DNA of 64,000 nt from Escherichia coli 042. GTDB taxonomy: Bacteria; Pseudomonadota; Gammaproteobacteria; Enterobacterales; Enterobacteriaceae. Below are positions 28,677 through 31,600 of this stretch, piece by piece; positions within the stretch are counted from its first letter, which is position 1, and each line of letters begins with the position of its first letter. The position numbers were made by a program. The stretch lies in the NCBI RefSeq assembly GCF_000027125.1, contig NC_017626.1; one strand, 5' to 3'.

Positions 28677-31600
28677 TTAAACAAAAAAACGAAGCAAGCA
28701 TACGCCTGATGGCGGTCCAAAAAAAAGAGTCATCTTGCCTAAGAGTATTGGCAGGATGGTGAGATTGAGCGACAATCGAGTTACACCGTCGCTTAAAGTG
28801 ACGGCATAATAATAAAAATATGAAATTCCTCTTTGACGGGCCAATAGCGATATTGGCCATTTTTTTAACGCAACATCTGCGGCAAATTCCCTTCTCCATA
28901 CAGGTGTAGTGCACCGACTGCGACCACATAGCGCCCCGGCGGCATGGCGCATAATTTGTCCCGCCAGGCGAGATTTCGCTGATGCATCAGCACATCGTAC
29001 AGCGACTGACTGAACGTATTAGGCAGCGTTATTTCATTATTTTGCGGCGGCGCATTCAGCCACCAGCTCATCATTTGTTGCAGCAACCGTGCATTGGTGT
29101 GCCAGTGGGTCAGCGTATCGTCCAGCAGCGCCAGTCCGTTGTCAGGGAGCTGGAGCAACATGGCAATCTGGTTTTCTGCCCCTTCCAGTTCAATCACGGG
29201 TTTATGTTGTTGCTTCGCCGCCTGCAATAGCTGGTAATCGATACCGTATTCTGCCCGCAGCCCCAGTTTTTGTGCCTGCGTCGCCTGAAGAACCATCGCG
29301 ATTTGCCACAGCGGTTGGGTAGAAAAGAGTGAGGTAGAAATGCCCATCTCCTGGCTAATGTGCTGCAGGTTTTGGAGTTGCTCCTCGCTAATGCGCTCTT
29401 CCAGCGCCTCGCAGGCAGGCAAATTAGCAAAAGGCGTATCGCTGGTGGAAACATCCGCCTCGACGATCAGCGCATCGGCGTTTTTGAGCTTTTTGAGCAA
29501 ACGGGTGGGCAGGGGAGCCATATCGTGGCTGCCCATATGAATACTGCCAATCAGATGAAAATGGCGATTGCCGGGAAGAGAGATATCGATAGCAGGCCAG
29601 GTGTAATGATTACCGCGCAGCGCGGCCCAAAGCGTTTTTACCCGGTACAACAGATCCATACGACCTCCCTTTGTGAAATATCATGCTAGCGCGCGGGGAG
29701 GGATGGCGCAAATGGAGTTATGAGGCTTGTTCAGTGGTAGCTTAAATATGATCGAAAAATTGTTTTTGCTTTGAAACGAAAGACTGCACCGGTGTTGGTG
29801 GCGTCAAAATCGCCGAGGCGTTCCCTGAAGGCCGGGGCAGCCCACATGGATGTGGGCTGAGGGCGCGTTTTACAGGGATGTTACCTCGCGCCCGACCCGG
29901 TAGCCGCAAGGGATAAGCTGAGGGTACCGCGCAGCGGCGATTTTGTTCGCCAGAGCCCGGGGGTGCAGGGGGCGGCGGCGATTGGCCGCCCCCTGCGCCA
30001 GTCACTTTATATGGCATGACTCATAAAAGGAGCGCAACAAGAACTGGATCTCACAAACGCATTAAGTAAATACCAATCACTCTTTCGGTTTAAACCGCAG
30101 TAACCGGTTGGCGTTACTCACTACGGTAATCGATGAGAGCGCCATTGCCGCTCCGGCGACCACCGGGTTAAGCAGTGTTCCAGTGAACGGCCACAAAATA
30201 CCGGCGGCGACCGGAATACCAATGCTGTTGTAGATAAACGCGCCGAGCAGGTTCTGCTTCATATTGCGCAGCGTTGCGCGGGAAATCGCGAGCGCATCTG
30301 CAACACCCATCAGGCTATGGCGCATCAGGGTAATCGCCGCGGTTTCAATGGCAACATCACTGCCGCCACCCATCGCAATACCGACATCCGCCTGGGCCAG
30401 CGCTGGCGCGTCGTTAATGCCGTCGCCCACCATTGCCACCTGACGTCCTTCACTTTGCAGACGTTTGATCGCTTCGGCTTTACCGTCCGGCAGCACCCCG
30501 GCGATCACCTCATCAATCCCTGCTTCTTTGGCGATCGCATTGGCGGTGGTTGGGTTATCCCCGGTCAACATCACCAGACGATATCCCGCTTTATGCAGAC
30601 GTTGCAGCGCCGCCACGCTATCACTACGCAACGGATCGCGTACTGCCAGCAAGGCCACCGCTTTCCCGTCAACCGCCAGCAGCACAGGCGTTGCCCCTTG
30701 CGATGCCTGAGCTGAAATATCTGCCTCAATCGCTTTAGTATCAACTTGCTGGTCATTTAACAGCGCCTGATTGCCCAGCAATACCGCATGACCTTCAGCT
30801 TCACCGCTCACACCCAGCCCGCGCAATGTGCGGAAACCGTTGACCTGCGGTAGCTGCATATCACCTGCTTTATCGAGGATCGCCCGTGCCAGCGGGTGGC
30901 TGGAACCTTGCTCCAGCGCCGCCGCCAGACGCAATGCTTGCGCTTCATCAACATCAGCAAATGTTTTTACTGCGACAACCTGCGGCTTCCCTTCGGTCAG
31001 CGTCCCGGTTTTATCGAACACCACGGTGTCGAGCGTACTGGCGCGTTGCAGCGCGTCGGCGTCCCGCACCAGCACACCAAACTCAGCCGCCCGCCCGACG
31101 CCCGAAATAATCGACATCGGCGTCGCCAGTCCCAGCGCACACGGACAGGCGATAATCAGCACCGTGGTGGCAATCACCAGGGTATAGACAATCTGCGGTG
31201 CCGGACCAAAGAAATACCAGATTGCCGCACTGATCAGCGCAATGACTACCACTACCGGCACAAACACGGCGGAGATTTTATCCGCCAGTTGACCGATTTC
31301 TGGCTTGCTGCTCTGGGCCTGTCGCACCATGCGAATGATCCGTGACAGCGTAGTATGGCTGCCGACCGCACTGGCACGAAACAGCACACTGCCGTCCTGT
31401 ACCACTGTCCCGGCATGGACGCTATCGCCTTCGCCTTTTTGCTGCGGGATAGGTTCGCCCGTCAGCATCGCTTCATCCAGCCACGCTTCGCCTTGAGTAA
31501 TCTCACCATCTACCGGCACACGGTCGCCGGTCGTCAGGCGCAGTAACATACCTGGCTGAACATCTGCCAGCGGCACGTTTTTTTCACCTTCGTCAGTGAC

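What the first reader, a model, noticed from the sequence alone, without database searches (positions are those of the whole stretch)
28783..28870. ChiX sRNA 3' end abuts or overlaps the convergent ybaP stop
The sRNA terminator U-tract (ending about 28866) overlaps the last codons of ybaP on the opposite strand (ybaP stop at 28865-28867). This is a compact convergent arrangement where the sRNA terminator may also terminate ybaP transcription.
Basis: partly seen in the sequence, partly recalled or inferred. Interest (0 to 1): 0.15.

Follow-up and report, generated by a model that had tools for sequence, protein, structure and literature searches.

The report
ChiX terminator overlaps ybaP stop codon
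The end of the well-known E. coli small RNA ChiX shares two bases with the stop codon of the opposite-facing gene ybaP; this tight packing is real, already annotated and experimentally mapped, and conserved across enteric bacteria, but nothing shows that the ChiX terminator also stops ybaP transcription.

Summary
The window is an E. coli chromosome. Rfam places ChiX (sroB, RF00368) at 28783..28866 (+). Its terminator is an 8-bp hairpin (28839..28858), one A, then U7 (28860..28866). The convergent ybaP (TraB/GumN, 264 aa) has its TAA stop at 28867..28865 (-). The overlap is therefore 2 nt of the stop codon, not "the last codons". K-12's curated annotation has the same 2-nt overlap. Three published 3'-end data sets put the ChiX 3' end at K-12 507287/507288, which is window 28866/28867. 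In all 16 ChiX loci I recovered (Escherichia, Citrobacter, Enterobacter, Pluralibacter, Superficieibacter, Rahnella, Serratia, Pantoea), the YbaP stop codon lies in the last 1-2 T of the ChiX U-tract, although YbaP's C-terminal tail varies from 1 to 5 residues. The idea of a shared, bidirectional terminator is not supported. On the ybaP strand the hairpin is followed by CGUCAAAGAG (1 U in 10), which is the complement of the ChiX seed. No minus-strand 3' end is reported, but ybaP is probably too weakly expressed for that to count as strong evidence. Published data also indicate weak ChiX read-through that Rho limits inside ybaP. Already known; low interest.

The parts
28748..28776 (+). ChiX promoter-like site: TTGGCA, 17-nt spacer, GACAAT. 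The second hexamer ends 7 nt before the sRNA 5' end.
   Evidence: It is the only sigma-70-like site found in 28100..29800. The GAGCGACAAT motif is conserved upstream of ChiX in the Enterobacteriaceae loci.
28783..28866 (+). ChiX (SroB/MicM/RybC) small RNA, 84 nt.
   Evidence: Rfam RF00368, 81.1 bits, full length. It matches K-12 chiX 507204..507287 with one base difference, at 28819.
28786..28804 (+). ChiX 5' stem-loop (8 bp, loop UUA).
   Evidence: MFE and centroid fold. Its sequence varies between species. I did not test covariation in this stem.
28823..28837 (+). Single-stranded seed region AAAUUCCUCUUUGAC. Its complement forms the minus-strand 'tail' after the hairpin.
   Evidence: Unpaired in the fold. 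Upper-case (highly conserved) in the Rfam consensus. Its complement sits just upstream of a chiP-like start codon in L044/L045/L066.
28839..28858 (+). ChiX terminator hairpin GGCCAAUA-GCGA-UAUUGGCC. It can form on either strand.
   Evidence: Terminator scan and folds. 100% paired in 15 sequences, with one compensatory A-U to G-C change in Rahnella and Pantoea.
28860..28866 (+). U7 tract of the ChiX terminator, which becomes the Hfq-binding 3' tail. The mapped RNA 3' end is at 28866/28867.
   Evidence: Sequence. Term-seq 3' end at K-12 507287 in three conditions. TRS analyses give a dominant end at 507287 or 507288.
28865..28867 (-). ybaP stop codon TAA. Its 2nd and 3rd bases are the complements of the last two T of the U-tract.
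   Evidence: ORF list and K-12 annotation. The stop lies in the T-run in 16/16 loci: TAA with 2-nt overlap in 15, TGA with 1-nt overlap in Pantoea.
28865..29659 (-). ybaP, TraB/GumN-family protein, 264 aa.
   Evidence: ORF. PF01963, 147 bits. RefSeq annotation.
29047..29047 (+). Approximate position of a published Rho termination region (K-12 507468, +), antisense inside ybaP, about 181 nt beyond the ChiX end. Resolution is coarse (800-nt windows).
   Evidence: Adams et al. 2021, Supplementary file 2: untreated upstream/downstream 1492/22, BCM-treated 2100/115, Rho score 3.71, p=4e-10.
28182..28661 (-). ybaK, the next gene downstream of ybaP on the minus strand and divergent from chiX. It is what ybaP read-through would run into.
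   Evidence: ORF and annotation.

Best explanation
This is the ordinary, one-directional Rho-independent terminator of the constitutively made, Hfq-dependent sRNA ChiX, packed with zero spacer against the convergent gene ybaP. RNA polymerase transcribing ChiX forms the 8-bp hairpin and releases the RNA in the U7 tract at 28866/28867. The last two T plus the next A read TAA on the other strand and serve as the ybaP stop codon. I infer that the arrangement persists for two reasons. The U-tail of seven or more U is fixed by ChiX's need to bind Hfq. The ybaP reading frame simply runs until it meets the TAA supplied by 'T-run + A', so the variable YbaP tail always ends at the same place relative to ChiX. 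Termination of ChiX is efficient. The small amount of plus-strand transcription that continues antisense into ybaP is limited by Rho within a few hundred nucleotides. In the ybaP direction the same hairpin has an A-tract before it and the complement of the ChiX seed (CGUCAAAGAG) after it, so it should not act as an intrinsic terminator. How ybaP transcripts end is not known. Shown: the identities, the coordinates, the 3' end in K-12, and the conservation. Inferred: the reason for the conservation, and the lack of terminator activity on the minus strand.
For: ChiX identity and boundaries. Hairpin plus U7 on the + strand only. ybaP ORF, stop and family. Identical curated geometry in K-12. The window differs from K-12 ChiX at one linker base only. 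Experimental ChiX 3' end at 507287/507288 in the Adams Term-seq, TRS RNAtag-seq, Barsheshet and re-analysed Dar & Sorek data. Rho-limited plus-strand signal antisense to ybaP (Rho score 3.71). 16/16 loci with the stop codon in the T-run, despite tails R, K, S, T, KG, KKG, KKP, QPQG and KARQT after the conserved ..NLPxML. Hairpin 100% paired with a compensatory change. Minus-strand tail has 1 U in 10 in all 15 sequences, against 6-8 U in 10 on the plus strand. Requirement for a poly(U) tail of seven or more for Hfq-dependent sRNAs, as stated in PMC9765468.
Against: No dataset I could reach shows where ybaP transcripts actually end, so 'not a terminator for ybaP' rests on sequence rules only. 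U-tract-independent bidirectional termination at hairpins between convergent genes has been reported in E. coli. The neutral 'backstop stop codon' explanation for the conservation is untested. One RIL-seq data set reports minus-strand reads over exactly this region, which may mean ybaP transcripts do pass through the hairpin.
Confidence: 0.72

Rival explanations
1. Shared (bidirectional) terminator. The palindromic hairpin forms in the ybaP transcript too. It pauses or dislodges RNA polymerase, possibly helped by head-on collisions with the heavy ChiX traffic, so both transcripts end at the same hairpin and ybaP does not read into anti-ChiX and ybaK.
For: The hairpin folds on the minus strand too (-10.9 kcal/mol in context). 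ChiX is very highly expressed (Term-seq read counts 445,000-955,000). The collision model says a hairpin in the overlap region and high traffic favour termination without resembling intrinsic terminators. The neighbouring pair ushA/ybaK is also separated by a single hairpin without U-tracts, and the ushA 3' end maps 1 nt before the ybaK stop.
Against: There is no U-tract after the hairpin on the minus strand in any species, and the scan finds no minus-strand terminator there. The minus-strand fold is no better than shuffles (z=-1.6 and +0.47). No minus-strand 3' end appears in the 3'-end tables checked. RIL-seq minus-strand reads span 507215-507289, which, if real, means transcripts continue through the hairpin.
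Confidence: 0.2
2. Functional cis-antisense coupling. ybaP transcripts read through the stop codon and carry a 3' UTR perfectly complementary to ChiX. Abundant ChiX then pairs with it, triggering cleavage and setting the ybaP 3' end or ybaP/ybaK levels, or the UTR titrates ChiX. The zero-spacer design makes the complementarity begin exactly at the stop codon.
For: About 55 RIL-seq chimera rows map to the minus strand at 507215-507289 ('ybaP.EST3UTR') on Hfq, and the authors relabelled them as ChiX. The junction is strictly conserved. ChiX is known to be controlled by decoy RNAs (chbBC IGR, ChiZ).
Against: The minus-strand reads are about 0.2% of ChiX reads, which fits a strand artefact from a very abundant RNA. 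Their partners ArcZ and SdsR pair slightly better with ChiX than with anti-ChiX in a crude duplex test (z -2.1 and -1.8 against -1.2 and -0.6). ybaP gives no detectable 3' ends, suggesting very low expression, so it cannot titrate ChiX. No published phenotype links ChiX and ybaP.
Confidence: 0.06
3. Annotation coincidence. The true ybaP stop or the true ChiX end lies elsewhere, and the overlap exists only on paper.
For: ChiX 3' ends show a small spread (call windows 507283-507294). PGAP does not annotate ChiX in the closest genomes.
Against: The YbaP Pfam domain runs to the last residue. The ORF end is conserved in 16 loci at 58-98% protein identity. Three data sets give a dominant 3' end at 507287/507288, inside the stop codon.
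Confidence: 0.01

Closest known systems
ChiX / SroB / MicM / RybC sRNA (Rfam RF00368) in the ybaK-chiX-ybaP locus of E. coli K-12 and Salmonella
   Same: Same gene, same neighbours and the same 2-nt overlap with ybaP as in the curated K-12 record. 83 of 84 nt are identical, and the terminator and U7 are identical. The synteny is described as well conserved in enterobacteria (PMC4355480; PMC3384567).
   Different: One linker substitution (A37U, window 28819). This strain lacks ybaQ beyond ybaP and has a TRIP1e-type repeat instead. Neither difference touches the junction.
ArcZ sRNA / arcB convergent overlap in E. coli K-12
   Same: The 3' end of an Hfq-dependent sRNA overlaps the 3' end of a convergent protein-coding gene: arcZ 3350577..3350697 (+) against arcB from 3350689 (-). 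Term-seq classifies the 3' end as antisense to the CDS.
   Different: The overlap is 9 nt, so it includes sense codons of arcB. In ChiX/ybaP only 2 nt of the stop codon overlap.
Bidirectional terminators of convergent E. coli gene pairs (Ju et al. 2019 SEnd-seq; Wang et al. 2022 collision model, bioRxiv 10.1101/2022.10.23.513370)
   Same: A convergent pair with a single hairpin at the gene boundary, with one partner very highly transcribed.
   Different: Those sites are defined by overlapping 3' ends on both strands and, according to the authors, do not resemble intrinsic terminators. Here the plus strand is a textbook intrinsic terminator, and no minus-strand 3' end has been seen.
Canonical bidirectional intrinsic terminators (hairpin flanked by an A-tract on one side and a T-tract on the other; from general knowledge of Rho-independent termination)
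   Same: A near-palindromic GC-containing hairpin shared by two convergent transcription units.
   Different: An A/T tract is present on one side only (T7 downstream on the plus strand). The other flank is the ChiX seed, so the minus-strand RNA gets CGUCAAAGAG instead of a U-tract.

Membership tests
ChiX/sroB sRNA (RF00368) | Match to the Rfam covariance model above the gathering score, full length | tested here: met
   81.1 bits against 44, model positions 1-83/83, E=7.8e-11
ChiX/sroB sRNA (RF00368) | Genomic context ybaK - chiX - ybaP | tested here: met
   ybaK 28182..28661 (-), ChiX 28783..28866 (+), ybaP 28865..29659 (-). The literature describes this synteny.
ChiX/sroB sRNA (RF00368) | Conserved single-stranded seed (UUCCUCUUUGAC) complementary to the chiP 5' UTR | tested here: met
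   The seed is present and unpaired. Its exact complement lies just upstream of a start codon reading MRTFSGKR in three Enterobacterales loci. That this gene is chiP rests on my own knowledge. chiP itself is not in the window.
ChiX/sroB sRNA (RF00368) | Hfq binding and repression of chiP/dpiBA | not testable with these tools
   Known from the literature for K-12 and Salmonella. The sequence here is 83/84 identical to K-12.
Rho-independent (intrinsic) terminator, plus strand | Stable GC-containing hairpin immediately followed by a U-tract | tested here: met
   8-bp stem, 4-nt loop, A, then U7. Found by the scan. -12.4 kcal/mol, z=-3.6.
Rho-independent (intrinsic) terminator, plus strand | RNA 3' end mapped within the U-tract | tested here: met
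   From published data for K-12, not for this strain: 507287/507288 = window 28866/28867.
Bidirectional intrinsic terminator | U-tract after the hairpin on the second strand as well | tested here: not met
   The minus-strand tail is CGUCAAAGAG, 1 U in 10, in 15/15 sequences. No minus-strand terminator was called.
Bidirectional intrinsic terminator | Discrete 3' ends on both strands at the hairpin | tested here: inconclusive
   No minus-strand 3' end appears in the Adams Term-seq or TRS tables. ybaK also has none, so low expression may explain the absence.
Collision-type bidirectional terminator (Ju 2019 / Wang 2022) | Overlapping 3' ends of convergent transcripts in SEnd-seq, Rho-independent, dependent on convergent transcription | not testable with these tools
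   The Ju et al. 2019 paper and tables are not held. Only the model description was available.
TraB/PrgY/GumN family (YbaP) | Pfam PF01963 match above the gathering score | tested here: met
   147.3 bits against 26.8, residues 30-264. RefSeq calls it a 'TraB/GumN family protein'.

The most novel reading that the evidence does not exclude
The strictly conserved zero-spacer junction is functional rather than just compact. ybaP transcripts read through the hairpin and carry a 3' UTR that is a perfect antisense of ChiX starting exactly at the stop codon. This would make ybaP (and possibly the downstream ybaK) a cis-antisense target of ChiX, or a minor ChiX decoy. The minus-strand 'ybaP.EST3UTR' reads seen on Hfq in RIL-seq would be its trace.
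Probability: 0.06. Interest if true: 0.45.

Novelty: already known. Interest (0 to 1): 0.1.

Why it matters
It matters little beyond careful annotation. The overlap is already in the K-12 annotation, and Term-seq tables already classify it as 'primary chiX / antisense ybaP'. Two practical points follow. First, strand-ambiguous or annotation-driven pipelines can mislabel ChiX reads as a ybaP 3' UTR, as happened in one RIL-seq study. Second, deleting or tagging the ybaP C-terminus, or altering the chiX terminator, will affect the other gene. The deep conservation of a stop codon embedded in an sRNA's Hfq-binding U-tail is a tidy example of two genes sharing constrained bases. It would become interesting only if ybaP read-through RNA proved to interact with ChiX.

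Tried and rejected
(1) I scanned genome contigs with the 15-nt ChiX seed. Only 14 true ChiX loci were recovered, and Salmonella, Klebsiella and Yersinia ChiX were not sampled. (2) L044, L045 and L066 looked like Enterobacterales ChiX hits but are the complementary target site upstream of a chiP-like gene, so I excluded them. (3) Ju et al. 2019 (SEnd-seq list of bidirectional terminators) is not held under its DOI or under the PMC id I guessed. (4) The SMRT-Cappable-seq supplements do not mention ybaP, ybaK or chiX. (5) I ran an RNAduplex test of ArcZ and SdsR against ChiX and anti-ChiX to decide whether the minus-strand RIL-seq reads are real. U-tail/A-tract pairing dominated the result. It gives only a weak preference for ChiX and is not decisive. 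(6) A weak minus-strand terminator-like site at 28708..28695 (5-bp stem with a G-U pair) was considered as a possible ybaP terminator and rejected. The number of terminator-like sites in the region (3) is close to the shuffle expectation (2.2), the site lies in the ybaK leader, and no 3' end is mapped there. (7) I considered that the overlap might be an annotation artefact and rejected it.
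Full report
**What is at the coordinates**

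The window is an E. coli chromosome. The segment 28100..29700 matches 5422 of 5426 complete E. coli genomes and is 100% identical to several of them.

- The Rfam scan of 20000..38000 returns a single hit above the gathering score: sroB (= ChiX/MicM/RybC, RF00368) at 28783..28866 on the plus strand. It scores 81.1 bits against a gathering score of 44, E = 7.8e-11, and covers the full model.
- The sequence and the fold show the known architecture: a 5' stem-loop (28786..28804), an A/U-rich linker, the single-stranded seed AAAUUCCUCUUUGAC (28823..28837), a terminator hairpin GGCCAAUA-GCGA-UAUUGGCC (28839..28858), one A, and U7 (28860..28866).
- The consensus scan finds this terminator on the plus strand only. 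It also finds one promoter-like site (TTGGCA-17-GACAAT, 28748..28776) that ends 7 nt before the sRNA start.
- On the minus strand, the ORF 28865..29659 encodes a 264-aa protein ending ...NLPQMLR. RefSeq annotates it as ybaP, a TraB/GumN family protein. It matches PF01963 at 147 bits, with the domain reaching the last residue.
- Its stop codon TAA occupies 28867..28865. Bases 28865 and 28866 are therefore both the last two T of the ChiX U-tract and the complements of the 3rd and 2nd bases of the ybaP stop codon.

The only correction is that the overlap involves the stop codon, not "the last codons".

**This is already annotated and experimentally mapped**

- The curated K-12 MG1655 record has chiX at 507204..507287 (+) and ybaP at 507286..508080 (-), the same 2-nt overlap. 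Window coordinate = K-12 coordinate minus 478421.
- The window's ChiX differs from K-12 at one linker base (28819, A37U). The ybaP codon next to the stop differs synonymously.
- Term-seq (Adams et al. 2021, eLife, PMC7815308, Supplementary file 1) lists a very strong 3' end at 507287 (+) in all three growth conditions, with mean read counts of about 445,000 to 955,000. The authors classify it as "primary: chiX; antisense: ybaP".
- The TRS study (PMC10687069) reports dominant termini at 507287 (RNAtag-seq) and 507288 (Barsheshet data, and re-analysed Dar & Sorek Term-seq), within call windows of 507283-507294.
- ChiX therefore ends at window 28866/28867, inside the ybaP stop codon.

**Conservation**

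I scanned one genome per species for the ChiX seed. The 15-mer was too short, so most hits were chance, but 14 genuine ChiX loci were recovered. With the window and K-12, they cover E. coli, E. albertii, two Citrobacter, Superficieibacter, four Enterobacter-labelled genomes, Pluralibacter, an unnamed Enterobacteriaceae isolate, Rahnella, Serratia and Pantoea.

- In every locus the convergent ORF is a YbaP ortholog (58-98% identity). Its stop codon lies in the end of the ChiX T-run: TAA overlapping 2 nt in 15 loci, and TGA overlapping 1 nt in Pantoea.
- This holds even though the residues after the conserved ...NLPxML motif differ in number and identity: R, K, S, T, KG, KKG, KKP, QPQG, KARQT.
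- The terminator helix is paired in 100% of cells across 15 sequences, with one compensatory A-U to G-C change shared by Rahnella and Pantoea.
- The zero-spacer junction therefore appears to predate the split of Enterobacteriaceae, Erwiniaceae and Yersiniaceae.
- In Proteus, ChiX/MicM sits next to copA without ybaP (PMC4355480), so the linkage is not universal.

**Why it is probably conserved (inference)**

[quoted passage not shown] The T-run is therefore fixed by ChiX function. A T-run followed by A reads TAA on the other strand. The simplest account is that the ybaP frame runs through a short, unconstrained tail until it meets this fixed stop. In-frame indels change the tail length but not the end point. 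I did not test this neutral "backstop" model against selection for the overlap itself.

**Does the ChiX terminator also terminate ybaP?**

The sequence argues against canonical termination in that direction.

- On the minus strand the hairpin is preceded by A7 and followed by CGUCAAAGAG (1 U in 10), which is the complement of the ChiX seed. This is so in all 15 aligned sequences, whereas the plus-strand tail has 6-8 U in 10. The invariance is partly built in by the search pattern, but the seed is also highly conserved in the Rfam consensus.
- The scan calls no minus-strand terminator there. The minus-strand context does not fold better than shuffles (z = -1.6 and +0.47).
- No minus-strand 3' end between about 501.5 kb and 508.5 kb appears in the Term-seq and TRS tables I could inspect.
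- That negative result is weak. ybaK also has no called 3' end, so both minus-strand genes are probably expressed too weakly to register.
- Hairpin- and collision-dependent bidirectional termination that does not resemble intrinsic terminators has been described for hundreds of convergent E. coli genes and is favoured by heavy traffic (bioRxiv 10.1101/2022.10.23.513370). With ChiX so highly transcribed, this remains possible. I give it about 0.2.

**The other direction: ChiX read-through into ybaP**

Adams et al. list a Rho termination region at 507468 (+), antisense inside ybaP and 181 nt beyond the ChiX end (window about 29047). DirectRNA-seq counts upstream/downstream were 1492/22 untreated and 2100/115 with bicyclomycin, giving a Rho score of 3.71 and p = 4e-10. 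Plus-strand signal beyond that point is thus only about 1.5% of the upstream signal, and it rises about 3.7-fold when Rho is inhibited. The position is coarse because the method uses 800-nt windows. This fits an efficient ChiX terminator with a small leak that Rho mops up as an untranslated antisense RNA.

**An unresolved oddity**

In a RIL-seq study (McQuail et al. 2023, PMC10954441), about 55 chimera rows have one partner mapped to 507215-507289 on the minus strand, labelled ybaP.EST3UTR, joined to ArcZ, SdsR and others. The authors state that they "considered" it to be ChiX.

- These reads amount to roughly 0.2% of ChiX reads. That fits a strand artefact from a very abundant RNA, but a real anti-ChiX RNA (ybaP read-through) protected in a duplex would look the same.
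- A crude duplex test was not discriminating. ArcZ and SdsR pair slightly better with ChiX (z = -2.1 and -1.8) than with its antisense (z = -1.2 and -0.6), and both sets are dominated by U-tail/A-tract pairing.
- This is the only hint for the most novel reading, a functional cis-antisense relation between ybaP and ChiX. I rate that at about 6%.

**Comparison with known cases, and verdict**

- The element is ChiX itself in its standard locus.
- The overlap has a close parallel in arcZ/arcB, where the overlap is 9 nt and the Term-seq 3' end is classified as antisense to arcB.
- In the same window, ushA/ybaK is another tightly packed convergent pair. The ushA 3' end maps 1 nt before the ybaK stop, and the two genes are separated by a single hairpin without U-tracts.
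- The junction fails the defining test for a bidirectional intrinsic terminator (no U-tract on the second strand). It could not be tested for the collision type.
The conservation result is new to me but minor.

Noticed in passing
window 28143-28184: The neighbouring convergent pair ushA/ybaK is also tightly packed. The ushA stop is at 28143-28145, a single hairpin GTGCCGGATGTTCGCATCCGGCAC lies at 28153-28176 with no U-tract on either strand, and the ybaK stop is at 28182-28184. Published Term-seq puts the ushA 3' end at K-12 506602 = window 28181, 1 nt before the ybaK stop. It resembles the non-canonical convergent-pair terminators more than ChiX/ybaP does.
   Followed up: partly
window 29660-30076: The ybaP-copA spacer (417 bp) lacks ybaQ, which K-12 has there. 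Instead it carries a multi-copy repeat (median 4 places per E. coli genome). The full-length context is found in only 346 of 5426 genomes. It matches the published description of TRIP1e (PMC10888264). The best hits are only 97.4% identical over 428 against 417 bp, even in strains that are 100% identical across ybaK-ybaP.
   Followed up: partly
window 28819: ChiX carries U instead of A at position 37, in the A-rich linker, relative to K-12. E. albertii and another E. coli genome share the U allele, so K-12 may be the derived state. The base lies in the A/U-rich linker, and I did not assess any effect.
   Followed up: partly
K-12 507215-507289 minus strand (= window 28794-28868): A published RIL-seq data set reports Hfq-associated chimeras mapping to the strand antisense to ChiX, labelled ybaP.EST3UTR and relabelled by the authors as ChiX. 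This is either a strand artefact or a real anti-ChiX RNA.
   Followed up: partly
L123 (K-12 3350577-3350697 / arcB from 3350689): arcZ overlaps the convergent arcB CDS by 9 nt. Term-seq lists a 3' end at 3350696 classified as internal to arcZ and antisense to arcB. This is a second example of an sRNA terminator running into a convergent coding region.
   Followed up: partly
L044 (Yersinia artesiana) 1828-1842, L045 1653-1667, L066 6706-6720: An exact complement of the ChiX seed (GTCAAAGAGGAATTT) lies a few bases upstream of an ATG opening an ORF that reads MRTFSGKR. This is presumably the chiP 5' UTR target site, conserved to 15/15 nt in distant Enterobacterales.
   Followed up: no
window 28695-28725, minus strand: In the ybaK leader/promoter region on the minus strand there is a U8 run (window about 28718-28725) and a weak hairpin-plus-U7 (28708..28695, tail CTTCGTTTTT) just upstream of the ybaK start codon. 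The consensus scan found no sigma-70-like ybaK promoter, so how ybaK is transcribed (own weak promoter or read-through from ybaP) is unclear.
   Followed up: no
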